A stretch of DNA of 58,585 nucleotides, the filler included, from Squatina squatina (taxonomy: Eukaryota), in the NCBI GenBank assembly GCA_031763465.1. It is 4 parts of 4 records of this genome, joined end to end, with 100 filler letters (N's around TTAATTAATTAA, not from the genome) between each part and the next. Parts side by side here need not be neighbours in the genome. Positions count along the whole stretch, not along the records: positions 45,691 to 58,585 come from JARFOE010000234.1; 3 more parts are not named here. One strand, 5' to 3'. The notes below the pieces were generated by a model, which was given only the letters and a program-made list of their open reading frames with translations, did not search any database and was not told the DNA's origin. The translations under genes were made by a program, and so were the position numbers. Shown here in pieces: positions 1,801 to 56,803 of this stretch (positions within the stretch are counted from its first letter, which is position 1; every line of letters starts with the position of its first letter).

Positions 1801-4800
1801 GTGCTTCAATATGGAAATAGATATTATTGCATGAACATTACATTGCCAGTTACACCGACTTTAATGTACACATGGGACAAATGGACTGATGTCACCATAA
1901 TGCAGTTAGCAAAGCGTCTTATAAAATCAATTGACCCAAGTCAATTGAGTGCCAACCACGGCACTGCATCTCTTAGCAAAAGGAAGAAAGTTCTCAGACT
2001 CAGCATCTGTGCTAGGGAGCTCCACTGGCAGATGCCTCTGTTTGCTAAAAGATTGTTCCTCCTACAAAGCCTCTACCTCTGCAAACCTTCGGAACAGCAA
2101 CATATATAATAACGAATGCCATCAGCATGATGGAAACTGCATATTCTCTGTCAATGATCTATTGAAGCTGATAAATGCTTTTTAACCTCCTCTCGTTCCC
2201 CTCGCTGTACCTCTGCACTGTCCCACATATATAAAAAGAGATAGGGTAAGCCATTTTCAATTGATTAACTCAAAATACAACATATTGTTTGCAAAGTTTT
2301 AATGCAGTATATAAACATGTGGTATATACAGAATTACTATTGCAGCAGCTGTAAGATATAGGAAATAGTTCAACTGGTCTTGTCGAGGAGCACTTAACCC
2401 ACTCAGTCTTTAGACTGGTGAGTAATGATTCCTCGATGTGAATAACATTTCTATCCTCTATGCCCCATCAGTACTTGTATACATACCGTGTTAGCACTCT
2501 GTGTTATTGATAAAGTGTAGNNNNNNNNNNNNNNNNNNNNNNNNNNNNNNNNNNNNNNNNNNNNNNNNNNNNNNNNNNNNNNNNNNNNNNNNNNNNNNNN
2601 NNNNNNNNNNNNNNNNNNNNNNNNNNNNNNNNNNNNNNNNNNNNNNNNNNNNNNNNNNNNNNNNNNNNNNNNNNNNNNNNNNNNNNNNNNNNNNNNNNNN
2701 NNNNNNNNNNNNNNNNNNNNNNNNNNNNNNNNNNNNNNNNNNNNNNNNNNNNNNNNNNNNNNNNNNNNNNNNNNNNNNNNNNNNNNNNNNNNNNNNNNNN
2801 NNNNNNNNNNNNNNNNNNNNNNNNNNNNNNNNNNNNNNNNNNNNNNNNNNNNNNNNNNNNNNNNNNNNNNNNNNNNNNNNNNNNNNNNNNNNNNNNNNNN
2901 NNNNNNNNNNNNNNNNNNNNNNNNNNNNNNNNNNNNAGAAGATAAACCAAGCATGGCAATTACAACGCTGGTTACCACATGGAAAGACTGCAAAGGAAAT
3001 AGTGCCACTGTCCTAGCTTACAGTTCCATTGCCACATTGTCTACCACATGAATCATTAAAAGTAGACAAGACAAACAATGAAGTTCCCAACGTTCTGAAA
3101 GGGTATTTTCATATACCTATAATGCATTTATAAGGTTGTTGCATCCTATCTGACATCAGGTCCTGGATGAGCTAATTGGCTGCAGATGACGATCCGATGC
3201 AGCGCACTGATGTGCTGATACTGTCTGCAGTGGAGTGATGGGATTCAGTCCCACGCCCTCTGATTCCCCAACATGGTAGGGTCCTAGCTTCAATCAGGCT
3301 GATACTGGAGACACGGAGCAGATACAAGGTATTCCCCCATCAGGAGGGGAAAAGTGGAGGCTGAGCGAATCTGTGTCACACCACCCAGTGGTCAAATGCA
3401 GTGATGTAAGCAGAAATCCAGAAGCATGTCAGGGAATGCTGTGCAGAATTTGGCAATAAGCCTAAAAAGGCTGAGCGATTAACGAAATAAAAAGGAAAAG
3501 AAAAACATATAACTTCTTAAGTATTTTCAGAACGTGCCAAGAGCAATGTCCCTAGACTTCCTCCCACTCAATATAAATACTTAAATGAAGGAACTCAGCA
3601 CAAACTCTTAAGCTCTCAAAACCTACTGGGACAAATATGTTTGTGAGGTTTGCAGCAGTTAGTGCTTGACAAGTTCCATGCCATGGATAGGATTACTCTG
3701 CAGTGTTACCACATGAACCCTTCAATTCCTCACACTCACGTATGAGTACTTTCTGCCATCCGCCATTTTCCCATTTTGTTCCTCTCCATCAAGCAGTCAT
3801 CTCGTCCTCACCCTTATGTTGCTGGCACTCCTTCCTGCCCACTGCTTTCCATTCTGCCATCACTTCACTGAGCTCCCTTGATGCGAACAGTGTGGCCTAT
3901 AATCACAGGCCAAGCTGCGAATAGCACTGAGTCAAACAAACTGCTGCACGGACACTATCAAATCACTCACCAGTCCAGTTGTTCACGAGACACAGGATAC
4001 TATATTTAAAAAAATTAAAAAGCAGAAAAATGTTATTTTTGAAAAAAACACCAGGACAGGTGGAATAAAGATTTGCAGGCAGTGAATATAAATCCAGTGA
4101 TGAATTACAGAAAACAAATGAATGAGTGATGTGATTGATATAACTCAGTTGTGACTGCCAGTACCACCGAATTAATGGTTTACAATCCACAGTTGCCTAA
4201 TGTGTGTCCTCTATGATACTGTTCATATTTGTTACAAATACTCTTTCGTGTCATTGTTTTATTTTCAAGTTTGATATCTTGCTAACACATAAAAGGGTTG
4301 GTTTCTTATGAGGCAGCCATTGGCAGATTGAAAACATAGCTTTAAAAATGAGTCCTTGGCTTCTATTTCTGTCTCTGTAACATTCCATAAATGTACACGA
4401 CTGGTGTGTTATGCAGCAGAAATGTGGGCCGAGATCATTAATGCTGGATCTCCACTCACAATGCAGCTTGAAGTGAATTTCCAGCCAATGAAATGAATGG
4501 TGCAGAAAGTTCATGCCAGCAATAGGCGGGAGGCTCACTTTAATACAGTCATTAAGCAGGAGTTGGACCATTGAAACAATGAAGCCATTTTGCAGCATTT
4601 ATGTGGGAGGCATACTACATCTTAAATTTCCCCTTACAAATTGGGCATCCAGTGTTGATCAGCTGTGTCTTTCAACACAAAGTTGTTAAAGGGATGGCCT
4701 GCGAATTTAAGCTGAGCTTTCAAATCACTTTTTGATACTTTTGCTGTGTTTGGTTAACAATTTTTTCCCAACTCTCGCAGCAGAAAATTTTACATTAAAT

Positions 4801-6012
4801 GCGGATGGGATTGTATTTAGCTGTACACTGAGTTATACTTTATACACTGACAAAATATACATACAGGCACGACACAAACTCAGATTAAACTAACAGCTGA
4901 TGAAACACTTACCATTAAGTATGCTGTTGAAGTAGGGTTACGCAAACTCACATAACCACAGTGGCATTAAGTTATGAAGTCTACAAGTGACCAACACGAC
5001 AATCTGGCAGTGAAGAGAATTTTATGTGTGCTTTGCCAATTCTCAGGGGAGAACTTGTCCATCCATCAATCACCACAATATATATACCCCGGCTGATAGT
5101 GCTATAACAGAGCTGCACTAACAATGGCATTGGGCTCTAGTCTGACCATTTTCTCTCCGGCCTGAAGAAAGGAGGTCTGAAGCAAAAAGCTCAAATACCA
5201 TGAGGTGGAATCAGATGAGGGAAGTAACAGCTAAACAGACTAATTACTATAGAGTAATCGTTGCAAAAAAGACCATTAATCTGAAACTGGATAGCCTTTT
5301 CAGCTAAATATTTAAGGGCCCAAGGCAAGAGTCAGGGCAACTGTTTGCTCAACAAGTAAGCAATTGGTGAAGTAAACTTTCACAAACTCCTTTGGGGAAC
5401 ATGTAAAGAAACTCAAGAACCTTTATAGTCTGTAAATAGTTCCTGACAGAGATGAAATTACAGGCTATTAATGTTAGCTCTTGGCAATCATTGTGAATGA
5501 ATCACTGCAAGTTTATAGTTGCATATCTCCTAACTCTAATCTTTCATAAGGATACCATCATACATCGACTATATGGAGTATCTGGCCACCACTATCCACC
5601 ATTGGCAAAAGATGAGTGAAACCAACTAAAACAAGCCCACCAATTTCAAAGTCTGCATTTTAAAACTGACTAAAATACATCTCCAAGTATTAATCTTATC
5701 ATAGTGCTCAGATGGCAGTCACAAAGCCATCTTGTTGTTTATGACTGTCAGCTGACACCATCAATTGCCTAATAATCGTTACTGGGTACCTGAGCTATTC
5801 TGTTGGGGTGGGGTGAGGCAGAAGTTCCTCTTTTGAAAAGAAATCTATTACACTCGTGATAAACTAATTACACTACAAACTTAGCTATAGAACAGTACTC
5901 AAATTAATATCANNNNNNNNNNNNNNNNNNNNNNNNNNNNNNNNNNNNNNNNNNNNNNNNNNNNNNNNNNNNNNNNNNNNNNNNNNNNNNNNNNNNNNNN
6001 NNNNNNNNNNNN

Positions 6013-6529
6013 ATGTCGACACATAGCTCCAGTGACATCAAGCCTCCCTGCATGCCGAGGAATGGACTAGTCAAGATTCCAGCCCAGTCCAATGGATTAG
6101 GATCTGCCAGCATCACCAAAGGAACCCCTGCCGCTAAAAACCGACTGTGCCAGTCATCTTCTATTCCAACAGTGCTCCCACCACCTCTACCTAGCCACAG
6201 TGAACTGGCTTCAGTCGCACAGGCAGCGCACGTGCCATCATCATCTCTGTGCGGAGTGACTGACAGTATTCCACTGGTGGAACCAAACTCTGACGAGACC
6301 TTGCCAAGTACATGCCAGCCATCAGGGTCCAAAAGAAAACTGTCGATCTCTTCAATGGAAGGGCAATTGCCTATTTTGGATGAGAAGATCCTCAATCGAC
6401 TCTTCTGGTACTTTTCCTCTTGCGAGAGATGTGTTTTGGCACAAGTGTGTAAAGTATGGAGAAAGGTGTTGTACCAGGTCAAGTTCTGGGAAGGCATCAC
6501 CCCCATTCTTCATGCCAAGGAGCTGTATA
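6013..6529 (+). CDS. FBXL16: FBXL16 first coding exon (N-terminus and F-box), 3' part lost in a gap
   Basis: [26 protein letters not shown]...[50 protein letters not shown] closely matches recalled vertebrate FBXL16 ([44 protein letters not shown]). Bounded by N gaps on both sides. Confidence 0.96.
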
Positions 6530-7619
6530 NNNNNNNNNNNNNNNNNNNNNNNNNNNNNNNNNNNNNNNNNNNNNNNNNNNNNNNNNNNNNNNNNNNNNNN
6601 NNNNNNNNNNNNNNNNNNNNNNNNNNNNNCTGTTCCTATTTCTTATGGTCTATGGTCTTATGCACCTGGGATCCATAAATTCATCCAATTTATAACTCAC
6701 TCCTTTCGAAATGATCAAGCCAAGGCTTTGAGCACAAGAATAGTTCAAGACAAGAGGCTGTTGGGCAGCTTCAAACCTCAACACTCTTACGCTGTTCTCC
6801 CTGTAACAAAGGAGAGACTGCGGTCGATGCCGGATGGTGCTAAGGGGGCAGTCACAAAGAAGATGTATACTTTTACATCTGTAAATATCCTGGGCACCAG
6901 TATGAGTCACCACTGACCGAATCGCCATACATTGTCTCTCAAATACGTTGGGTATGTGGGTGATGATGTCCATGATGTTGAGATTTCTTTCCTAGGGCTG
7001 TTAGCCATCTCATTCACATAAAGCATGTTCCATTGGTCTAAGCTTGACTTGTCAGATGGACAAAAGTCCGGGATGGCTCCAGTAGTTCCCATCAATTTGC
7101 TGACCATAAATGGTCAGTGACAAAAAGGCCATTCAGTTTATCCCTTTAGTACCTTTCAAAGGGGATAAGGGGGAAGGGAACTCAAAGTCTTTCGTAAACA
7201 CATAGGCCAAGAGCTACTGCTTTGTGTGCAACTGACCATCCGGATACAAATTGCAGTAAAAATTGTGTTCGTTTTGCAAAGTGAATTTTTTGCTCAAGCT
7301 TCCACTCAAACTCATTTACATATCATTGAACGTAAAATGCTGTGAACCAGCATAATTGGGCAGCATTTTAGAACGTCATTTTGAAAACATATGGTATTAA
7401 AATATATTCCTTGATATATTTAACAGTGGTAACCTGGTGCAGTTTTATTAATATAGCTGAAAATGGGCTTATCACAAAAAATAACCAGTTTTACTCGAGT
7501 GTTTCGTCTGCCACTTGCGAGTAATCCAATCTTAAATAATTGAAAACATCTTTAAAAGACTGTAAGGGACCATTTACTAGTAACTTTGATGTACAGTAGT
7601 CAGTTTCTTGGTAAATTAT

Positions 7620-8281
7620 GGGGGTGAAATTATATAGCGCCCTGTTTGGGGTGATAACTTCCAGCAAGGAAATGCTACACTAAATCAAGTGCGACCACTT
7701 TCCTTGGAGTGCTAAAGTCAGCAAGAAGGGCAGTAGCGGTGCAGCACTACCCACTGTCGAGGGCAGTACTGCCGGGATCATAGGCTTCTTCCATCCCTTA
7801 AAGGGACGGGCCATTGCTGCAGGCTCTGCATTTCAACAATGTCCCTCGTTGCAGACAGCAGCCGCGATTAGCCCCAAGCACTCTAATAGAGGGCAGGGCT
7901 GATCAATTGTGGCGCTTCAAAATTTCAAAACACAACCTAAGGGATGAAAAAAAAAATGTTATGCACACAAGCAGCCTTACCTTTAGTTACCATTTCCCAA
8001 GCAGGCGGCCTCCCGAACGATGCTTCCTGCAGCTGCCGGTGTTAAGGGGCGGAACTAAAGTTCGGGACCTGAACGCTACTGGGGCGATGAGCAGCACGAT
8101 GATGTCATAATCTCCGAGCGCAGGAACTCGTGGCGCTGGGGTTACTGCCATCGCAAACCTCCAGGGGAATTTAGCAGGCGTCAGTACTCTCGCCGCGCCC
8201 GGGCACAGAGCTGTTAGTGCTTCGTTATCGCGTCCCTGGAGGCACTAAGGGGGAGGCACAAACGAGGCCAATTTCCAGCCC
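7620..8281. mobile_element. Apparently complete ~660-bp Harbinger-type MITE in the FBXL16 intron
   Basis: Imperfect TIRs gggggtgaaatt ... aatttccagccc (9/12); GC/CpG-rich body in AT-rich surroundings; internal cccttaaaggg palindrome. Confidence 0.65.
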
Positions 8282-9298
8282 TNNNNNNNNNNNNNNNNNN
8301 NNNNNNNNNNNNNNNNNNNNNNNNNNNNNNNNNNNNNNNNNNNNNNNNNNNNNNNNNNNNNNNNNNNNNNNNNNNNNNNNNNCATAGTGCGGGCGCAAAA
8401 CAGATTCTGTGCACTTGTGGCAAAGCACCTAATCCCCTGCTTGGTAACTGGTAAAATAGCCATGCAGCTGCATGGAGTGGGTGTAAGGAAGGGATGTCCT
8501 GTTTGACACTTCAGGGCGTCCGCCTCAGAGTGTAACAGTGCACCATCCCAGGGAAATCTGACCATAGATGATCAATAAGTAGTGATTGGATGTGATTTAT
8601 ATATAATTTGTGCCATTGACCATAACTAATGATTCTTTTCGTAGAGACGAATCTACCATGTCAGCCCACTTATGGGATACGAATCACATCCCACAGGTTT
8701 GCATAATGCATATCCTACATCAAGCACCCAGTGAACATTTGGATGCATGACCAGATAACCAGCGCTAATTGGTTAGGATATTAAAAGGCTGTAATGCAGT
8801 CCCAGAGATACAATGAAATTATTAGCCACTTAGGCTTTGCTCTTGAAGTCTGACATCACCTGAACTCTTGTATTCCAGCTGTATAAATTGCAGCCAGCTT
8901 TTGTTCTGTATTTCAGGTTAAATCACAAAATATGACAGGACGACTGCGCTGTGTATGCCTTATGCAATTGCGATTTGAGTCAGAAACCCAAATTTGCAAA
9001 GATTGTCCTCTTGGTTGATTCTGCTGATTACGGTTGACTAAATTAAATGCCACGAGGAAATCGTCTATGTTGGAAAAATAAATCATTTTGATTAAAAAGA
9101 AATTAAAACGTTCTCATCCTTTCATCTGTCCTGGGGAACAGTGCATTATGTCTGATTGCTGAGATGGAACTGGGGGCCCAATTCATTTCTTGGTCCCATT
9201 AAATAAGCGCCTGGCCGATTTAAAGTGATTGGGATATGCAGGTAAGGAATCATTACTACAGTATTTTATACATTCTCTTCACTCTTTCCGTTTCCTAG

Positions 9299-9910
9299 GT
9301 AATGTTGGAGCAGATGCAGGGACTCGCCCATCTGGAGCTCTCAGGCTGCAACGACTTCACAGAAGCAGGCCTCTGGTCCAGCCTTAATGCACGGATTACC
9401 TCCCTGAGCGTTAGCGACTGTATCAACGTGGCGGATGATGNNNNNNNNNNNNNNNNNNNNNNNNNNNNNNNNNNNNNNNNNNNNNNNNNNNNNNNNNNNN
9501 NNNNNNNNNNNNNNNNNNNNNNNNNNNNNNNNNNNNNNNNATGCCATCGCCGCCATTTCGCAGCTGTTGCCGAACCTAACTGAGCTGAATTTGCAGGCCT
9601 ATCACGTGACGGACACGGCCATGGCCTATTTCACTGCCAAGCAGGGATACACAACGCACACGCTGCGCCTGAACTCCTGCTGGGAGATCACCAATCATGG
9701 TGTGGTGAACATGGTGCACAGCCTGCCCAACCTCACTGCTCTCAGCCTCTCCGGCTGCTCCAAGATCACCGACGATGGCGTGGAACTGGTAGCGGAGAAC
9801 TTGCGGAAGCTGCGCAGCCTGGACCTGTCGTGGTGTCCACGCATCACTGACATGGCGTTGGAGTATATTGCTTGTGATCTTCACAAGCTAGAGGAGCTGA
9901 TATTGGACAG
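9299..9910 (+). CDS. FBXL16: FBXL16 leucine-rich-repeat exon (interrupted by a false 100-N gap at 9441-9540)
   Basis: Acceptor tttcctAG at 9297-9298, donor GTag at 9911. Encodes [71 protein letters not shown]...[13 protein letters not shown], near-identical to recalled FBXL16 LRRs. Confidence 0.97.
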
Positions 9911-12269
9911 GTAGACCAAAGGCTACATCTGCATTGATATTAATAATGTAGACAGTTCATAGGTTACAGTAAGACATATTGATTTGGTATCTGGTAACTC
10001 ATGCAGTAAAGCAATGCACAATGTGAATCTCCACATATAAGAATGAAGACCCATGTAAGCACCAGATTGCAGGGTCTTCAACTTCTNNNNNNNNNNNNNN
10101 NNNNNNNNNNNNNNNNNNNNNNNNNNNNNNNNNNNNNNNNNNNNNNNNNNNNNNNNNNNNNNNNNNNNNNNNNNNNNNNNNNNNNNCCAGGGGACTTGTC
10201 AGCCTTTGGTCCCATTATTTTGCCTAGTACTTTTTCTCTGGTGATAATGAATGTATTTATTTCATTTATATATGTATAATATTCTACAGCAGAAGATAGG
10301 AGACAATATCAGAGTTACCTTAATATCATTGCAGTGGGTGAGATCACAGTTTTCAAAAGGAGTCTAACTCAACCTTGTACAACATTCATCTGATGACTTT
10401 TGAGTAGAAGTTGTAAATTGCAACAGCCATATGATTACTCCAGATAATATACTGAAAGTGTCGCAAAAATCTTAAATGAACTTACACTTTTATACAACAA
10501 ATTGCATTGTGATATGTCAGAATATCAACGATAATGCACCTACACAGCTTTAGCAAGAACAAATTCTCCACTTCTTACAGATTAAATTGAAGATTATTGA
10601 GCGAAAGTGACTATTAGTGTAGTGACAATCTGAAGTACATTTGGGCTCCGAATGAAGAGATCTGTCCGACTGATCTGTGAGAAGAGCTCTACATTTTCAC
10701 TTTTTTATTTTTGAAAATTTTTCCCAAGAATTTTCTGAGGTTTATTTTTGTACAAGAGTTCTACCTTTTTATTTGTTTTGTGCTGACTGTAAAGGGACAG
10801 CAGCAGCATGAAACCTCATTATGTGTTGTCCTGGTGATGATAGAAAATAGTCCCACAAGGAAGTAGAGCCACACTGATGTTATCACATAGCTCGAGAAGC
10901 TCCAGCTCTTTTATAATGCTATATATTTCACAAGGCAGAAATGCAGTAGACCACAAAATCATTTTACCTGCCCTTTTGTTTTAAGAGCAAAATTTTAAAA
11001 ATCCAAATGTCTCGTGCTATAATTCAAGCCCGGGGATTTACTTTGTTTTTTTCCCCCCTCTTAAATGTGAAATTGATTCCCTGACAATGGAGCCTATCGG
11101 GTACGCATTGCTATGTATTATTCAAATGTTGTCCTCCTTTGATGTTCATAAAGCCCGCTAACTACAGAGCTGCTCCTTGGTGCTCCTTGCAGACGAATTG
11201 CGTTCGCAGCAGGGAATCAATCTGCCTCAGTACTCTCACTTTAACTTTAATTAGAAATGTGAGACTGTGTAGCAGCCGATGAAATAATGATGAACGATCT
11301 CGTTTCACAATAAATGAGGTCACACTAGCGGCAGCTTTCCTCATGCATAATGGGAACCTGTTTTGTGTGTTGGGCAGACAAGTGATTGATTGACGACCCC
11401 ACCCATATGTCTCAAGTTTTTCCTGGGTTTCTAACCCCTCCCACACCAGTGACTGTAACCGATGAGCACTTTAATGATATAGTCCTGACAATGCATTGAT
11501 TGTATCCTCTCGGTTCATACACCGAGCATTAAGGTANNNNNNNNNNNNNNNNNNNNNNNNNNNNNNNNNNNNNNNNNNNNNNNNNNNNNNNNNNNNNNNN
11601 NNNNNNNNNNNNNNNNNNNNNNNNNNNNNNNNNNNNGTTTCTGATTCTCATGCTAGTTTTTCGTGTGTTTTATGTAAAAAAAAACACCTCAAGAACACAG
11701 AATCCCTGTTTACAACCGCGTGCCAGTCACAGCAAGTTGTAACCCTTGTTCAGCATTTCTGTCATTGAATAAGATGTGAGTGCCCCCTGCTGTCGGGATC
11801 TGTTTACACTCGAGCCCATTCTGTTTGGTCATTCATATTTGTTGCTGTGAGGATTGTGCTGAGAAAACGGACATAAAAGGCACTAATAGCACAAGGTTAG
11901 TGTTTGAATAATGTTGGTAATAATTATCTCCTTAGAGAATACAATGCGTCCAGTCACTGATTAAATTCTGCCCTCTGGGCACAGGAATGGTATGCGTAAA
12001 ATTATAAACAAGATTTTGGCTTCATGTTTTCTTGGTATTTTTCTTCCCATACTCTTTCCCTCCTTCCTGTCCACTATCCTCCTCAAGCAGGTCAGCAGTC
12101 AAGAAACATTCCACGAGAGCACTGCTGGGAGCCAGAGTCCTTGTTGTAGCAACACAGGCAAGGAAAGCTGCACTATGACTAAAGAAACTATTTATCTTCA
12201 GAATGCCATCCTCTTGTCTCTTGTGCCGAGCAGCAGTTTAATAACAATTGCAAATACCAGTCCAATCCT

Positions 12270-31526: not shown

Positions 31527-31844
31527 TAATGTACCATTAATTTTTTTGATTTAAAATTTTTTAACAACTCTTATGCTAGTAAAACCAAGCATATATGCTC
31601 AGTTTTACCATGCATAAACAACTTTAACAGATTTCCAGTGCTGGCGTTGAGAAAATCTCGCAAATCTCAGTGCAGGAAATCTGTTTTGCAGCCTAAGTGT
31701 TGGATCTATCAAGAAGAATCTTGACAGATCGCAAATGCCGGATCTGCGGGCTTGTGCATTACAGCCTGAGAACCGGCATTTGCAATGTCTCCCCAGGTGC
31801 GTGGGAACATCGTATCCACCTGGGGAGATCGGAATTCCTGCCCC
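31527..31844 (+). mobile_element. Multi-hairpin element, right half
   Basis: Shares taatgtaccattaatttttttgattt...gagaaaatctcgcaaa...tcttgacagatcgcaa with the 47.7-kb copy; ends ggaattcctgccc. Confidence 0.8.
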
Positions 31845-35691: not shown

Positions 35692-35876
35692 GAACACTCC
35701 GCCCGCGGAGGCCCTTCTCCCGGACTGTGTTGCGATCTGTTAAGAGAAATCTTGACAGATCGCAAGTTCAGGGTTGAGGCACACGCGCTTCGCGTCCCTG
35801 AACCCGGAACTTGCGTGGTCCCTACGGGCACATGCGCATCTCGCACACGCCCGCAGGGACCGGGATTTCAGGGCCC
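35692..35876 (+). mobile_element. Multi-hairpin element, right end (second subfamily)
   Basis: ttgcgatctgttaaga-gaaa-tcttgacagatcgcaa plus two more hairpins; ends gatttcagggccc. Confidence 0.8.
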
Positions 35877-35899
35877 TTATCTTTCTGCAGTGAATCAAC

Positions 35900-36500
35900 C
35901 AAAGATCGCCTGCTTCTGAGGCTCTCTGGGCACCCGCGTTTACTGGCCCACACATCCCATCCACGTATGCGTTTCGCAAACAGTTCTAGTGAGCCGGCTA
36001 ACCGAATCAAGGTAGGGGTATTCCCACTCATACTTGTGATTCGAATCACCTTAAGTACGAATGGGTACACCCCAAAGACACACAAGCACTTTAACTAAAT
36101 TTTTAAAAAGCCATCACATCTTTAAAATTAACCAAAATAGAACTTAATTTTGAAAAAATAAACTTACATGTTTCAAAGTGTCTAAAAATAAACTTAGCTT
36201 ATTGAACATGGTTGTAAATTATTTTTAAAAAATTTATTTTTGTGTGCTTTAAAAGTCTTGTGACTGAAAAAGCAGACCTTACCCCTGCTTTTTCAGTCAA
36301 ATGAATTTGAAGGGCATTTACTGGGTAGGAGTTGGACAAATAGCCTAAATCTCCGCCTGCGGAGGTCCTTCTCCCGGGGAGGGGTTGCAGGTTCCAGGTT
36401 TAGGCACATGCGCTTCGCAGCCCTCAACCTGAAACTTGCAGGACCCCTATGGGCATGTGCACACCTCGTACGCACCCATTGGGACTGAGATTTCAGGCCC
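35900..36500 (+). mobile_element. Multi-hairpin element lacking its left end (second subfamily)
   Basis: Same order of GC block, AT core and hairpins; 36350-36500 is similar to 35697-35876; ends gatttcaggccc. Confidence 0.75.
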
Positions 36501-45350: not shown

Positions 45351-45374
45351 CCTGAATATAGCACCTGAAAGACA

Positions 45375-45590
45375 GCACCTCCGGCAGTGCAGCGCTCCCT
45401 CAGTACTGCACCTCCGACTGTGCAGCGCTCCCTCAGTACTGCACCTCCGACTGTGCAGAGCTCCCTCAGTACTGCACCTCCGACTGTGCAGAGCTCCCTC
45501 AGTACTGCACCTCCGACAGTGCAGAGCTCCCTCAGTACTGCACCTCCAACAGTGCAGAGCTCCCTCAGTACTGCACCTCCGACAGTGCAG
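45375..45590. repeat. 33-bp tandem repeat, about 6.5 copies, SINE-derived
   Basis: Unit gcacctccgacwgtgcagmgctccctcagtact repeated head-to-tail up to the scaffold end. A related sequence occurs once in SINE copies near 57200-57235 and 54205-54250. Confidence 0.95.
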
Positions 45591-46712: not shown

Positions 46713-46882
46713 GGCATAGATTTGGTTTTGCTGATGGGGTTGGGGAAAAAAGTGTGGTTTTCTTGCAGGAAGTTTTGATCGATTAGGTCATGGAAGCATT
46801 TGCTTTACTGGTCTGTAATTCTGTGTACAGTAGGGAATTCATTGCTGATTTCACTATACTTGTCAGTAGCCCTATACATTAC

Positions 46883-47039
46883 CTTGCATACCCGCTGGAC
46901 CGAAATCTTGCCTTGTTAAAAAGATGGCATGGTCGTGGTGCTCCGAATGGTTTGGGTCTGATTTTTGCTGAGAGTAAGCCCAACGGCAGACATTCTCCAA
47001 ACTTCGAGATGGATTCCCTCTTTCGATCAAGCTGATGGA
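46883..47039 (-). CDS. ADAMTS3: ADAMTS3 metalloprotease-domain exon
   Basis: Minus-strand AG/GT boundaries, 157 nt. Encodes [52 protein letters not shown](G), closest to recalled ADAMTS3 among ADAMTS2/3/14. Missed by the ORF track. Confidence 0.94.
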
Positions 47040-47231
47040 CTGATCAGAGTGTTTGATTTCATTAAGTTTTCATGTACGCGTTATAAGTACTTATTTCTTC
47101 AAAGCTGGATATATCATTTATACAAAATACCTCAATGGTCATTTTCCAACTTCATATTCCCATGAGTGAGCCTCACTGCCAGGAACACATATTGGAAATT
47201 CAGGCCTCCTGGAATGTCCTGTCAAGTCATT

Positions 47232-47930
47232 GGCCCTGAATTTGCAATCGGAGGCTTCCTGCAAGTGGGAGCCTCCAATTGCAAAAATATCTACGAACTT
47301 ACCTGACAGTCCTGGATCCACAGGAGCTTGCAATTTTCTGTCCCCCACAGTTGGAGATTCGGATCGCAGCTCTTCTCATTCCCGGGGACATCCAGCGAAC
47401 AGACTGGAGAGGTTACATGGGAGGCCACAAACAATCAGGTAGGAGTATCGCTCATTCAAGCTTTGACACTTCTGACAGATCTGTCGAAGCTTGAATGAGA
47501 GATGAAAAAGTACACAAACACATCCAAAAACAACTGTAACATTAAAATTTAATAAAAAGGAGATAAATAAGACAAAAGATTTTTTTTTTAATTTAAAAAA
47601 AGATCTTTTAAAATGTTTAAAAACATACTTACCTTATTGGGAATGTTTTTAAATTAATGTACCATTAATTTTTTTGATTTGAACATTTTTAAAAACTCTT
47701 ACACTGGTAAAACCAACCATATACACTTGGTTTTACCATGCATGAAAAAGTTAAGAGATTTCCAGTGCAAGTGTGGAGAAAATCTCGCAAAGCTGCGCTA
47801 TGGAAATGTCTTTTCCTGCCGAAGCGTATGATCTTGACAGATCGCAACTGCCGGATTTGCGGGCATGCGCAGAGCAGCCCCAGATTCGCCACTTGCAAGG
47901 ACCCCCGGGTGCGTGGGAAAATCATACCCT
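47232..47930 (+). mobile_element. Multi-hairpin non-autonomous DNA element (most complete copy; right end in a gap)
   Basis: Left terminus ggccctgaattt; serial inverted repeats; 47655-47930 is highly similar to 31527-31810. Confidence 0.8.
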
Positions 47931-48032
47931 NNNNNNNNNNNNNNNNNNNNNNNNNNNNNNNNNNNNNNNNNNNNNNNNNNNNNNNNNNNNNNNNNNNNNN
48001 NNNNNNNNNNNNNNNNNNNNNNNNNNNNNNCA

Positions 48033-48414
48033 CCAGCAGGGGTGCCCCTCACTGAGCTGGAGGAAAGGGTCCTGCAGCTGATCGGCCCTCAAGTGGCAGA
48101 CCCTGTTGCCCAGGGCAATGCAGATCCAGTGACTGGCGAGTGTTGGAGTAGGTATGATGGAACTTCACCATCAGTGCAGGAAGCTAGATTAAAGTGTGCA
48201 TGCCCATTGTGGACATGCGTAATGCCACATAGGTGCACCCTTTCACTTCAACCATCTAAAGTATGTGCTGTTTGTCATTGCAGAAGTCTTACATATAATG
48301 CCAGCATCACCATCAGTCCACAGTAGCATGACGGAGGAGGATGAAGAAGCCACCGAGACTGAAGAGGGAGAGGGGGAGGCTCCGGAACAGATGGAGTCAC
48401 TTTCCACCCAGTGA
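48033..48414 (+). pseudogene. Harbinger Myb/SANT-like ORF, internal fragment with a putative intron (48136-48283)
   Basis: PAGVPLTELEERVLQLIG resembles the LT.LEERV..L.G motif that follows the Myb/SANT domain. A g/GCGAGT donor and ttgtcattgcAG acceptor join in frame to the acidic tract EVLHIMPASPSVHSSMTEEDEEATETEEGEGEAPEQMESLSTQ*. Confidence 0.55.
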
Positions 48415-48851: not shown

Positions 48852-50771
48852 CTGACAATGAAAGGAAGGGAAGAGTATTGAAGTCATTCCAATTTGTGAA
48901 TTGCCCAACTGTTTCCAGGGGCTGTTTGTGTTGCCATCTTCTACTACAGCCAAACCTTTATTTCAAACAAAATACAAATCTCAGCTGTAGATAATGAATC
49001 TCATTGGGGCATGAATCTCAGTTGGATATCTTTACCTAAAAGAGTTAAAAGTTTCTTATTATTTTAAGTAGAGGGTTGTTTATGAGTCGCCAACTCAAAT
49101 ACATGTGTCAACTAAAATGTCATTGAATAACTGATTGAGCTCCTGTGGCATTGCTCCTACTGAGTCATTGTTGCAGGTTTGAGGATGGGGTTGCTGGGGC
49201 ATGGGGTGGGTTGGGGAGGGGAGAGATTAAATTTGCGATAGCATCCTTACCTATGTGTTCACACTGCACTCTTGCCAAATTTCACAGACAGGCAAGGGCC
49301 TCATTAATATTCAAAAATCAGGGACTGATGATGTTATTTGGACCTTGATTCGATTTTATCCCCAGCCCGTATGAATTGTATACAATACCGAATGCGCCAG
49401 GGAAAGCTGATATTTATAACATTTTTTAAGGTTAAGTTTAAGCAGGAGTCCTCCTCCGGGTTGCACAAGGAATATTTAGGCCTCCACTGCCCTGGGCTTC
49501 CATTTCTAGTGCCATGACCNNNNNNNNNNNNNNNNNNNNNNNNNNNNNNNNNNNNNNNNNNNNNNNNNNNNNNNNNNNNNNNNNNNNNNNNNNNNNNNNN
49601 NNNNNNNNNNNNNNNNNNNCCCCGGCCCCCCAGTGCAGTGATCCTGTTTTATGTGGGAGGTAATGACACTGGAGTTCCAGCAAGGTCAACGCTGGAGTGG
49701 ATCAGCGGATGGAAGTTCCAGCTCAGCAGCGCAAAATCAGGGCAAATGGCCACGTAGAATTTCAGGGCCAAGAAACAGGAAAGAGCCATTATGCCTTCAT
49801 TGTCTGGCATTTCGCAGTGTCTGTATTATTTCAAGGACAGGACATACTGGGTGGATAGCTCTTCGGAGAACAGGGCTGGCAGACACAGTAAATACTGTGT
49901 AAGACAGTCAAAGGATGTGGGAGCAGATGAGAAATAAAGGTTAATGGCCTCAGGAAGTCAGCCGAGCTATGTCTCGGCAGTATTTCATCATACCAAGGAG
50001 ATGAGCAAAGCTTGCTTTGCACAAAGCATTTACTGTCACTATGTTGAACTCGGGCTGTGTGCTGAGCTCTCAGAAAATAGCTCTTTCCATTCCTTACATG
50101 TGCGCATAAATGGCAGCAAGGCATCCTCTATTACAAATACTTCAGAGTGGACTTGTTATCACCTTGCCATTTACAAAGGGTGACTTCAGAAGCAAGTCAG
50201 AACACAACCTTACCTTCATGTACTCACACACCAGCTGGGAAGCAGGGTGAACACTTGTATGTCACTCTAGATCTTCTTCAAACAGCTAACATCTCAATGC
50301 AGCTTACACAATAAGACAACAAGCAACAGACAACAGCAAACTCAAATGGGAAAAAGATCCCCTAACTTTGGATTACTGATTTGAGGGAATCGTAGCTAGT
50401 GGTTATAGGAATGGACTAGTAACCTCGCAGTTATAAGTTCAAATCCACCGGCCCCCACCCCCACCGTGGCAAGTTGTAACAACTAAACTAATATAGATTT
50501 GTAGATCTGCACTTGCATTTCTCACAGATAGTCCGAGACCTTAAGTGTAGTTGCTGATTTTCATGTAGTTAGGATACAACAAAGGTGAGTGAGATGATAA
50601 ACATGTTCACACAGATTCCCTCATTGGACAGTAGCCTGAGCTTGGGTTCACACTCCATACTGGGAGTTGTAGTGTTGCCCATCAAAATTTAGAAGCAGTT
50701 TACAAAAATATGCTAGGGGTTGGCAAAATGAAGAGTAGCAATGGAGAGAAATGAGGACTCCCACATGTCTC

Positions 50772-51060
50772 TTCCCCTCACACCCGCCCATCTCCCTCTC
50801 ACACCCGTCCCGCTCCCTCACACCCGCCCCTCTCCCTCTACCTCTCACACCCGTCCCTCTCCCCCTCACACCCGCCCCGCTCGCCCTCACAACAGTCCCA
50901 CTGGCCCTCACACCCGCCTCGGTCCCTCTGACACGCGTCGTTCTCCCCGTCACACCCGTCCAACTCCCCGTCACACCCGTCCATCTCCCTCTCACATCCG
51001 TCCCTCTCCCCCTCACACCCGTCTCACTCCCTGTCACTCCCTGCTACAGTCGTCTCACTC
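50772..51060. repeat. C-rich ~21-bp minisatellite
   Basis: Unit approximately cccctcacacccgtccctctc repeated more than ten times, with degeneracy, up to a gap. Confidence 0.9.
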
Positions 51061-54599: not shown

Positions 54600-54790
54600 C
54601 AGACATAACTGATGGCACCCTGTTCCCTCGGGAAGCAGGCTATGTTCGCAAAGCACACAGCTCTGTCTTGCTGATCCTGGAAGCTACAAGAGAAGGATAT
54701 GTACTGCTTTCTTTTCCTGTAGAGTGCTTTGGTGACCTGTCTAATGGGGCAGTGGACTGCGTAATGGGGGATGTTGGAGATGCCAGCCAT
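54600..54790 (-). pseudogene. PIF/Harbinger (HARBI1-like) transposase fragment
   Basis: GISNIPHYAVHCPIRQVTKALYRKRKQYISFS...QQDRAVCFANIACFPREQGAIS resembles the Harbinger segment GD..ISQSAVHRCIRQVT.AL...YISFP...F..IAGFP.V.GAID, with the first catalytic Asp lost. Confidence 0.8.
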
Positions 54791-54805
54791 AGTACCTTGA
54801 AATGA

Positions 54806-54950
54806 GCTAATGTTTCAGGTCGGTGACCGTTCGTCAGAACGACAAAGGGTCTGACGAAAGGTCACAGACCTGAAATGTTAACTCTGCTTCTCTCTCCACA
54901 GATGCTGCCTGACCTGCAGAGTATTTCCAGCATTTTCTCTTTTTGTTTGT
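54806..54950 (+). mobile_element. Penelope-like element terminal repeat with a partial inverted copy; shorter tail fragments at 24318-24350 and 32146-32173 (-)
   Basis: tctgacgaaaggtcacagacctgaaatgttaactctgcttctctctccacagatgctgcctgacctgcagagtatttccagcattttc, preceded by a 31-nt inverted copy. Inverted partial termini are typical of Penelope-like elements. Confidence 0.75.
54846..54885 (+). ncRNA. Minimal type-I hammerhead ribozyme-like motif (probably decayed)
   Basis: agggt / CTGACGA / a-aggtc-aca-gacct (stem II) / GAAA / tgTTA / actct. Core boxes are in the correct order and stem I agggt:actct pairs (one G-U). Confidence 0.6.
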
Positions 54951-55086: not shown

Positions 55087-55688
55087 ACATCCGTGGGGCC
55101 CCGCAAGTTCCGGGTTTAGGGCTGCAAGGCGCATGCGCCTAAGCCCAGGAGTTGCGTTCTGTCAAGATTTCTCTTGATAGATCGCAACACATCCCTGGGA
55201 GAAACCTTGACCAGTGAAAGCCCTTCAAATTGTTAAGCTGATAAATGCAGGCATACAGGCCTGCTTTTAGCAACGTAAGACTTTTAAATAATTGAAAAAT
55301 AGAATTGAACTACTTATTTATTTATTAATTATCCTGTCAAGTAAGATAAGTATTTTTCAGAGTCTTTAAAATGTTTTTTTTTAATTTTCAACAAATTTTT
55401 TTTTGTATAAAATATTTAATTAGATAGCATTTTAATTAATTTTAATATTAGAACTGTTTTTTAAGTTTATTTTTATGTGCTTGTGGGTTTTTTGGTATTT
55501 CCATTCATACTTCTGTTGGTCTGTAACCCGCATACGCTGTTAGGATACCTGGGTCTCTACGCTGATATTCACACAGAGGCCCAGGATCGCAAGACTGCAA
55601 ACCTACCAGACCACTAGGTACTTTCGCAGAAAGCTTTCCGATCGGAGGCCTGAGCCTGCGGGAAGGCTCCGTCCGGAATTTCTGGGCC
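55087..55688 (-). mobile_element. Multi-hairpin element in reverse orientation
   Basis: gttgcgttctgtcaagatttctcttgatagatcgcaac hairpin, gcgcatgcgc-centred hairpin, AT core, terminus ggaatttctgggcc. Confidence 0.8.
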
Positions 55689-55816: not shown

Positions 55817-56803
55817 CACGATAGAAAGATTTCAGTGTATCAGGCAAATAAAATGGAAACAGTAACTAAACATTTATTTGAAAGAATCAGCAAATTACAT
55901 TGTTTCAATGGCTGTTTTATATGTGTTCAGAATATAATAGTTAACTACAACATTTAAAAATACCTTGCCTCAAGTATTTTCCTGAAATGGCTACATTTTT
56001 TCTATCATTTTTTAACCCCTCCGAACTGACTATAGATGTATTTTGTATCAAAATCAGGTCAAATACCTTTTCATGGCAGGAACCAATTCTTACCCACTTC
56101 CTCCTCAACATATTGGGCTACTAATATGAAGATCACTTGCTGACTCTCATATTTTGTTTACTTCTGATTTCTTTACAAACACTTATTATTTTTGTAAAGA
56201 GAGCAGCAGCAAACCAAATTTAAGTGGAGGCAAGTGATCTTCATATTAACCCAATACAATGAAGAGGAAGTGGGTACGAATTGCTTCCCATTATGAAGGG
56301 GTATCTGGTCTGATTGATTTTGATTCAAAATACTTTGCATTTTATGTGCCACTGAAATATTATTCTGACAATCACAACCAGTTCTCAATAAGCGTAAATT
56401 AAAAGGAGGCCTGTGCACTGAAAAATTCTGGTGCAAATTTACAGCCATCCTGAACTTGCATAAATGCAGCTTAGTTTAGGCTTAACCTGAAGTGTATATA
56501 GTACTTCGCATGTGTAACCACTTTTTAATTCCCTCCAATTACTTTACAACATCAGTGTTGTAAATATTAGTAACAGTGTATGCTGTAAAAGTTCAGAACC
56601 TGCATTTTAATCATTTCTGAACAATGATTATTTAAAATGGAGATTCTAATGTGTTCTAGGTTTAGACCACTTGTTACCTGTGATTGGGTTTAAACCATTT
56701 ACAACCACTTGTAACTTAGGTGTCAGACAAAATTGAAGCTGGGCAATTTCTTGCATGTTGAGCATTAGCCATCAATTTCTTTTGCCAATCTTTATTCTTT
56801 CAG

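What the first reader, a model, noticed from the sequence alone, without database searches (positions are those of the whole stretch)
47232..47930. Dispersed ~0.7-kb element made of a fixed series of hairpins with compensatory changes between copies
Seen: five copies on two scaffolds (31527-31844, 35692-35876, 35900-36500, 47232-47930, 55087-55688 reversed) share one layout: GGSCC..GAA(A)TT-type terminus, hairpin, GC block, hairpin, AT core, four or five more hairpins, terminus. Homologous hairpins differ in sequence but still pair. Last hairpin: tctccccaggtg/cacctggggaga (31.8 kb) vs ggtccctacgggc/gcccgcagggacc (35.8 kb). Preceding one: gcaaatgccgg/ccggcatttgc vs gcaagttcagggtt/aacccggaacttgc. 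Post-core one: tggtaaaaccaa/ttggttttacca (47705-47738) vs gactgaaaaagcag/ctgctttttcagtc (36.27 kb). Others include ctcattcaagctttgaca/tgtcgaagcttgaatgag (47451-47499) and gcgatctgtyaaga/tcttgacagatcgc. Ordinary MITEs are one long fold-back; this is a string of local stems. Inference: either structure (ssDNA/cruciform, RNA, or paired protein sites) was selected during propagation, or the arms are homogenised by template switching. No coding potential is visible.
Basis: partly seen in the sequence, partly recalled or inferred. Interest (0 to 1): 0.72.

Follow-up and report, generated by a model that had tools for sequence, protein, structure and literature searches.

The report
Hairpin-chain Harbinger transposon with co-evolving arms
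A 750-base non-coding jumping element, present in thousands of copies in this likely shark genome, is built as a chain of DNA hairpins whose two arms changed together while the element was multiplying but not after copies settled, likely because one arm was copied onto the other during the DNA repair that would duplicate such elements.

Summary
Observation confirmed. The element is a non-coding repeat of 751-772 bp with 18-bp terminal inverted repeats, a 3-bp AWT target duplication and five subfamilies (58-85% identical), most likely a non-autonomous PIF/Harbinger transposon. The genome holds many DDE_Tnp_4 and Myb/SANT genes beside similar termini, but no direct parent was found. Seven long stems keep their place in all subfamilies; the left-middle block re-pairs differently. 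Covariation is real: 11 of 12 double changes between subfamilies A and D and 9 of 11 between B and C keep Watson-Crick pairs (slid controls 0-4). It is confined to source lineages: resident copies show 13 private compensations against 14.9 expected and lose hairpin tips by deletion. There is no G-U or strand bias, stems are not slower than loops, and mismatched haplotypes spread well, so an RNA structure is unlikely. Best reading: arm-to-arm copying during gap repair of excision sites (inferred); main rival: selection for DNA fold-backs. Many copies have flanks from different sites, by assembly chimerism or real recombination (unresolved). Dfam/Repbase could not be checked.

The parts
47229..47231 (+). 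Left target trinucleotide ATT (AWT-type target duplication; right copy lost in the N gap)
   Evidence: flank profile of 123 left and 102 right ends; +3 nt against empty sites
47232..47930 (+). Subfamily A copy of the non-autonomous element, consensus positions 1-725 of 751, 91.7% identical
47232..47249 (+). Left 18-bp terminal inverted repeat (GGSCCWGAAWTTGCGRTC type)
47241..47285 (.). Hairpin H1; its outer arm is the inner half of the TIR
47302..47412 (.). GC-rich middle block; pairing differs between A/D and B/C/E
47447..47503 (.). Hairpin H6, longest stem (23-30 bp in consensuses), many compensatory swaps
47506..47699 (.). AT-rich core
47700..47744 (.). Hairpin H7 (post-core)
47753..47813 (.). 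Hairpin H8
47828..47841 (.). Remnant of hairpin H10; a 14-nt deletion removes the left arm and tip in this copy
47842..47898 (.). Hairpin H11
47901..47930 (.). Hairpin H12, cut by the assembly gap
31527..31844 (+). Right 318 bp of an A/D-intermediate copy with right TIR (31827-31844)
35692..35875 (+). Right 184 bp of a B/C-type copy with right TIR (35858-35875)
35885..36500 (+). Subfamily B copy, left ~86 bp missing, H10 largely deleted, right TIR 36483-36500
55087..55688 (-). Subfamily C copy with left TIR (55688-55671) and ATT flank; deletions through H4-H6 and H8; cut by gap in H12

Best explanation
This is a family of non-coding, 750-770-bp DNA elements with 18-bp terminal inverted repeats and 3-bp AWT target duplications, likely moved in trans by the genome's PIF/Harbinger transposase and Myb/SANT proteins, whose hairpin arms co-vary only in the multiplying source lineages, likely because one arm is copied onto the other when an excision gap is refilled by homologous repair. 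Steps: (1) shown: TIRs, target preference AANAY-AWT-RTNTT, +3 nt against empty sites, five subfamilies, order 10^4 pieces. (2) Inferred: mobilisation by Harbinger proteins; no parent was found. (3) Shown: compensatory swaps between subfamilies and between shared haplotypes, none in excess among private changes; resident copies decay neutrally and lose hairpin tips. (4) Inferred: cut-and-paste elements gain copies when the donor gap is resynthesised from the sister; the nascent single strand folds on the inverted arms and template switching perfects them, a ratchet that only actively transposing lineages ride. The seed inverted pairs were probably subterminal TIR-like sites (TTGCGA-type motifs sit at the base of several stems in A and D).
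For: TIR profile of 293 ends; flank profile; 4 copies inside known repeats show exactly 3 extra nt (L079, L086, L176, L179). 32,675 DDE_Tnp_4 and 12,120 Myb_DNA-bind_5 first-look candidates. Contigs L151 (DDE), L318 and L341 (Myb) carry GGGG(G)..AAATT/AATT-type termini near the genes, with ATT or ACT flanks in L151 and L341. Covariation: A-D 11 of 12 and B-C 9 of 11 double changes stay Watson-Crick, slid 0-4. With pairs defined only from other subfamilies: 8 of 10, 3 of 4, 6 of 11, 6 of 9. 44 of 140 shared column pairs show two or more WC types vs 4-12 slid; 23 of 43 RNAalifold pairs on 29 real copies. Resident copies: 13 vs 14.9 private compensations, 1,714 single-arm breaks, equal 3.4-3.9% private change in stems, loops and core. 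50 of 114 deletions touch a tip vs 32.9 expected (2 of 2,000 simulations). For copying over selection: stems not slower than loops (P 0.24-0.85). In C-H6 the two fully paired haplotypes differ at 3 sites, yet mismatched ones are commoner (9+6+5 vs 3+3 of 44). At 49 stem mismatches the pair-restoring base is a shared variant 12 times vs 3 for the two other bases together. Literature: HDR can duplicate mPing (PMC10288884, passages; authors call it far from conclusive); DSB gene conversion perfects quasi-palindromes by template switching (bioRxiv 10.1101/2023.08.09.552703, abstract).
Against: No autonomous parent sharing internal sequence in the DDE- or Myb-bearing loci or partial-copy continuations, so transposase identity rests on TIR and target similarity. 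Compensated sites are mostly not clustered (P 0.37, 1.0, 0.11; only C-B 0.03, one shifted block). No whole-hairpin or spacer inversion, a hallmark of template switching, was found: 9 of 1,620 tests scored better inverted, and the 8 in H6 were explained on inspection by arm haplotypes, CpG decay or deletion; the one in B-H10 was not inspected. All five consensuses keep all seven stems and a 751-772 bp length although resident copies lose tips often, which hints at selection. mPing excision sites are usually closed precisely by NHEJ (PMC4561436, passages), which limits gap repair. Other Harbinger-like termini sampled fold weakly (z +2.5 to -3.0 in the 4 non-family cases), so gap repair alone does not make such chains. 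Many copies look chimeric, which could blur haplotype counts.
Confidence: 0.5

Rival explanations
1. Same Harbinger-type element, but the DNA hairpins or cruciforms are functional cis-elements selected in the source copies (for synapsis of the ends, nucleosome placement, or survival of a single-stranded repair or replication intermediate).
For: Seven stems hold position across 58-85% identity, and length is conserved. Compensation occurs only in propagating lineages. Swaps are mostly single-site, not tracts. Tip-centred deletions suggest the stems can extrude in genomic DNA. Internal sequence tunes mPing mobility (PMC9921582, passages).
Against: Stems change as fast as loops. Haplotypes with 1-3 mismatches outnumber fully paired ones in C-H6. 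The left-middle block changed its pairing altogether.
Confidence: 0.3
2. The palindromes are inverted pairs of Myb/SANT or transposase binding sites, and parallel change reflects protein-DNA co-evolution.
For: TTGCGA occurs 7 times in A and 6 in D (both strands), including the TIR and stem bases. Harbinger Myb-like proteins bind the element ends (PMC9179366, passage; the palindromic subterminal sites of Harbinger3_DR are recalled, paper not held).
Against: Motif counts are within the shuffle maximum (mean 4, max 7-8), and B and C show no such enrichment. Stems are 10-30 bp and unrelated in sequence to each other, and compensations fall outside the motif.
Confidence: 0.1
3. The element is, or derives from, a structured RNA (or moves through RNA), and the stems are RNA helices.
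For: Strong folding z-scores. E-box, CCAAT and minus-strand splice-donor-like motifs are present.
Against: TIRs and a 3-bp target duplication; both strands fold alike; G-T 21 vs A-C 17 and 29 transversion-type vs 23 transition-type swaps; no Rfam match.
Confidence: 0.05
4. A different class (Crypton, Spy, Helentron-like) that inserts without duplication into AWT^AWT.
For: The middle base differs between the two ends in 13 of 41 clean A/T cases.
Against: Four collinear empty sites show a 3-nt gain with matching middle base, and the discordance is accounted for by copies whose flanks come from different sites.
Confidence: 0.05

Closest known systems
PIF/Harbinger MITEs (Tourist-like; mPing)
   Same: Non-coding, under 800 bp, short TIRs starting with G, 3-bp target duplication, high copy number. 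AWT is listed among PIF/Harbinger TSDs (PMC9033116 Table 1, seen).
   Different: Target is AWT in a long palindromic preference, not TWA. The interior is a chain of 7-10 local stems of 10-30 bp with compensatory change. No such architecture was found in the searches run.
Pangu group of PHIS (Han et al. 2015, PMC4482050, passages)
   Same: ANT target duplication, TIRs of 11-40 bp beginning GG or AG.
   Different: Pangu's second ORF has no recognised domain in that paper's results, whereas the candidate partners here carry Myb_DNA-bind_5. No transposase tree was built.
Harbinger3_DR / HARBI1-like vertebrate Harbingers
   Same: DDE_Tnp_4 transposase plus Myb/SANT protein in the same genome; subterminal binding sites (recalled).
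   Different: Its CWG target (recalled; NuwaI type in PMC4482050) differs from AWT, and no sequence link to this element was found.
Quasi-palindrome template-switch mutagenesis (yeast DSB repair)
   Same: Perfects imperfect inverted repeats during repair synthesis (bioRxiv 10.1101/2023.08.09.552703, abstract); homogenises arms (PMC8604942, search listing).
   Different: Shown for single reporters, not for a transposon lineage. Spacer inversions, expected there, were not found here.

Membership tests
PIF/Harbinger (PHIS) non-autonomous element | Short terminal inverted repeats | tested here: met
   18 bp, 14-17 of 18 matching between ends in the five consensuses; profile of 293 ends
PIF/Harbinger (PHIS) non-autonomous element | 3-bp target-site duplication (TWA, AWT/ANT, CWG by group) | tested here: met
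   4 of 4 collinear empty-site cases gain 3 nt; flank consensus AWT. Only 31 of 92 both-end copies had identical 3-mers; many have non-collinear flanks
PIF/Harbinger (PHIS) non-autonomous element | No coding capacity, short, high copy | tested here: met
   ORFs at most 89 aa; 3,460-11,682 first-look candidates per query
PIF/Harbinger (PHIS) non-autonomous element | Autonomous partner with DDE transposase and Myb/SANT ORF sharing the ends | tested here: inconclusive
   Such genes are abundant and sit beside related termini, but none shares sequence beyond ~12 terminal bases
Pangu group | ANT TSD and transposase in the Pangu/IS5 clade | tested here: inconclusive
   TSD fits; no partner identified and no phylogeny run
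Spy / Crypton / Helentron | Insertion without target duplication | tested here: not met
   3-nt gain in L079, L086, L176, L179
Structured non-coding RNA | Rfam match or strand-specific covariation with G-U tolerance | tested here: not met
Structured non-coding RNA | Discrete transcript | not testable with these tools
   No RNA holder of this stretch listed; only contigs of other organisms
Named Dfam/Repbase family | Full-length match to a library consensus | not testable with these tools
   No such library on hand

The most novel reading that the evidence does not exclude
A DDE cut-and-paste element whose amplification depends on, and is recorded in, a chain of single-stranded DNA hairpins: the stems are selected cis-elements of a fold-back intermediate, and the left and right halves recombine between copies during amplification. 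This would make it a structure-dependent, replicative mode of transposition within PIF/Harbinger.
Probability: 0.2. Interest if true: 0.82.

Novelty: new variant of a known kind. Interest (0 to 1): 0.55.

Why it matters
How cut-and-paste elements multiply is still argued; for PIF/Harbinger the evidence for homology-directed refilling is called far from conclusive (PMC10288884). This family offers a natural read-out: compensatory arm changes occur in source lineages (11:44 double:single between A and D) and not in resident copies (13:1,714, all at chance). That contrast can be tested directly in an excision assay. It also warns that covariation, usually read as proof of a functional RNA, can arise in transposon DNA. 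Finally, Harbinger elements are very abundant here, whereas two surveys found none in elephant shark, and one of them asked for other cartilaginous fish to be checked (PMC4482050, PMC9179366, passages).

Tried and rejected
(1) Heteroduplex target duplication. 13 of 41 clean A/T cases differ at the middle base against ~5% expected from the 2.5% A-T rate. I first read this as carry-over of donor overhangs, as mPing has (PMC11254759, PMC4561436, passages). Dropped: of 90 both-end copies tested, 19 had a repeat-anchored flank. By eye, 4 continue the repeat on the other side (all with matching middle base), 5 clearly do not, 3 probably do not and 7 are uninformative, so mixed flanks suffice. (2) Locus-level arm homogenisation: no excess. 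(3) Spacer inversions: none convincing. (4) Parent search through DDE loci, Myb loci and partial copies: none. (5) Hairpin chains as a general trait of Harbinger ends here: not supported in a small sample of 6 termini, 2 of them from this family. (6) RNA: no RNA holder listed; contigs of guessed RNA runs from other organisms touch only short parts; no evidence either way. (7) Telling assembly chimeras from real recombination: A and D never switch across the core in 81 copies, laying four DNA runs on L184 showed no joint across the element, and no comparable control repeat was in the sample; unresolved. (8) Earlier findings by sequence and words: nothing. (9) Two papers were not held (Sinzelle 2008; Hicks 2010); what I say of the first is recalled.

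Full report
Observation. The five pieces are present and homologous, and the quoted arms are at the stated places. A stem scan found 14 stems in about 2.4 kb of copies and 1 in 20,592 bases of other window sequence. The genome is 1.5 Gb in 1.15 million contigs. That it is a shark rests on recalled SINE/LINE tail motifs and an earlier unchecked note.

Family. Nine DNA searches of the genome gave 3,460-11,682 first-look candidates each. An unbiased scaffold sample held 8 pieces in 386,312 non-N bases (0.6%), so the order is 10^4 pieces. From 245 de-duplicated copies, chosen as best hits and so biased to consensus-like copies, five subfamily consensuses of 751-772 bp were built: A, D, B, C, E. 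They are 58-85% identical. Copies of A-D, B and C lie 6-14% from their consensus. TIRs are 18 bp. Flanks read AANAY-AWT | element | AWT-RTNTT (123 left and 102 right ends). Four copies inserted in other repeats show exactly three extra bases against empty paralogous sites. No ORF exceeds 89 aa, and Rfam gives nothing. The genome has 32,675 DDE_Tnp_4 and 12,120 Myb_DNA-bind_5 candidates. Several such contigs carry related GGGG..AAATT-type termini, some with A.T flanks. AWT is a listed PIF/Harbinger TSD (PMC9033116, Table 1 seen), and ANT defines Pangu (PMC4482050, passages). No element sharing internal sequence with a transposase or Myb gene was found. I put non-autonomous PIF/Harbinger at about 0.88.

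Structure. Consensuses A, B and C fold at z = -11 to -20 on both strands with RNA or DNA parameters. Outside the AT core, 52-66% of bases lie in confident Watson-Crick pairs in A, D, B and C. Seven stems (H1, H6, H7, H8, H10, H11, H12) keep their place in all five; positions ~70-190 pair differently in A/D and B/C/E. The terminal stems H1 and H12 use the inner half of the TIR as their outer arm.

Covariation. A to D: 11 of 12 double changes stay paired among 157 pairs (slid controls 0-4). B to C: 9 of 11 among 166 (slid 0-3; four of these are one shifted block). With pairs defined only from other subfamilies the counts are 8 of 10, 3 of 4, 6 of 11 and 6 of 9. Across five consensuses, 618 of 698 cells in 140 shared column pairs are paired, and 44 pairs show two or more pair types against 4-12 when slid. 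RNAalifold on the right halves of 29 real copies gave 23 of 43 pairs with two-sided change; that count is not corrected for relatedness.

Where it acts. In 231 resident copies, private changes run at 3.4-3.9% in stems, loops and core alike. There are 13 private compensations against 14.9 expected and 1,714 single-arm breaks; CpG pairs show 137 against 154 expected. Deletions of 8-60 nt outside the core touch a hairpin tip in 50 of 114 cases against 32.9 expected (2 of 2,000 simulations). So after insertion the host erodes the stems; pairing is renewed only in the lineages that multiply. Shared compensatory haplotypes within subfamilies confirm this.

DNA or RNA. G-T and A-C mismatches are equal (21 vs 17), and transversion-type swaps are as common as transition-type (29 vs 23). 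With TIRs and a TSD, this points to DNA. Expression could not be tested.

Copying or selection. For copying: stems are not slower than loops. In C-H6, fully paired haplotypes differing at three sites (3 and 3 of 44 copies) are outnumbered by mismatched ones (9, 6, 5). At 49 stem mismatches the pair-restoring base is a shared variant 12 times against 3 for the other two bases (partly transition bias and mixed consensus). Homology-directed repair can duplicate mPing (PMC10288884, passages), and break repair perfects quasi-palindromes (bioRxiv 10.1101/2023.08.09.552703, abstract). Against copying: compensations are mostly unclustered, no spacer inversion was found, mPing gaps close mainly by precise end joining (PMC4561436, passages and section 8), and all seven stems and the length are kept in every subfamily. 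I give copying 0.5 and selection 0.3. Paired protein sites may have seeded the stems (TTGCGA 7 times in A, 6 in D, but within the shuffle maximum).

A side result that changed. The middle base of the target differs between ends in 13 of 41 clean cases. I first read this as donor overhang carry-over. One search showed instead that, of 19 copies with a repeat-anchored flank among 90 tested, 4 are collinear, 5 clearly and 3 probably are not, and 7 cannot be judged. L172 switches from 93-97% to mostly 85-89% identity with L179 inside the AT core. Variants left and right of the core are unlinked within subfamilies (mean r2 0.017 over 722 pairs, against 0.22, 0.10 and 0.06 for same-side pairs at <20, 20-100 and >100 nt), yet A and D never swap halves (81 copies). 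Assembly chimerism is the simplest cause; real recombination is not excluded. The hairpin tests concern pairs under about 70 nt apart and should be little affected.

Novelty. Ten literature searches returned no description of a MITE with a covarying hairpin chain. The library lacks most subscription journals and Repbase Reports, and Dfam/Repbase could not be queried, so the family itself may already sit in shark repeat libraries. Papers were seen as keyword passages (PMC4482050, PMC4561436 plus its section 8, PMC9179366, PMC11254759, PMC9033116, PMC6334234, PMC5753468, PMC10288884, PMC9921582), an abstract (the bioRxiv preprint) or a search listing (PMC8604942). Verdict: real feature, new variant of a known kind, interest 0.55.

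Noticed in passing
window 46872-47024 (-): Coding exon resembling an ADAMTS metalloprotease (best PDB hits ADAMTS-5, E 1e-4; covered by contigs of guessed RNA runs). The element sits about 200 bp away, apparently in an intron.
   Followed up: partly
whole genome G000: 32,675 DDE_Tnp_4 and 12,120 Myb_DNA-bind_5 first-look candidates: a very large Harbinger load, where two surveys reported none in elephant shark.
   Followed up: partly
L172, L184, L195, L406, L085 and others: Copies whose left and right flanks come from different sites, and no linkage across the AT core within subfamilies. Assembly chimerism or real recombination.
   Followed up: partly
TIR position 3, 293 ends: C 156: G 122, variable at most ends of most subfamilies and independent of the target's middle base. 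Unexplained.
   Followed up: partly
L086, L176, L179, L184, L019, L172: Repeated insertion at one palindromic site in the tail of an abundant SINE/LINE; L179, L403 and the left part of L172 are duplicates of one insertion.
   Followed up: partly
consensus positions ~66, ~182, ~200, ~410: Minus-strand splice-donor-like motif (twice in A, D, B), E-box (B, C) and CCAAT motif (A, C, D); possibly promoter remains of a parent.
   Followed up: no
window 54608-54811 (-); 48031-48290 (+); 35158 onward; 7620; 29244: Degenerate Harbinger transposase fragment (tblastn E 9e-9; no Pfam hit), a Harbinger-like exon fragment (recalled resemblance), and three other Harbinger-type termini.
   Followed up: partly
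window 56038-56333: About 300-bp self-complementary fold-back (75% identity), probably another MITE.
   Followed up: no
window 45372-45590 and 50770-51041: Short tandem arrays.
   Followed up: no
L144 (-) near 6550-6400: A transposase-linked Harbinger end followed by short stems and an internal inverted copy of its TIR; similar internal motifs in L147, L148, L150.
   Followed up: partly
runs X1-X6, X13, X20: Related copies occur in at least three other coded organisms (A, B, D), so the family is shared among relatives.
   Followed up: partly
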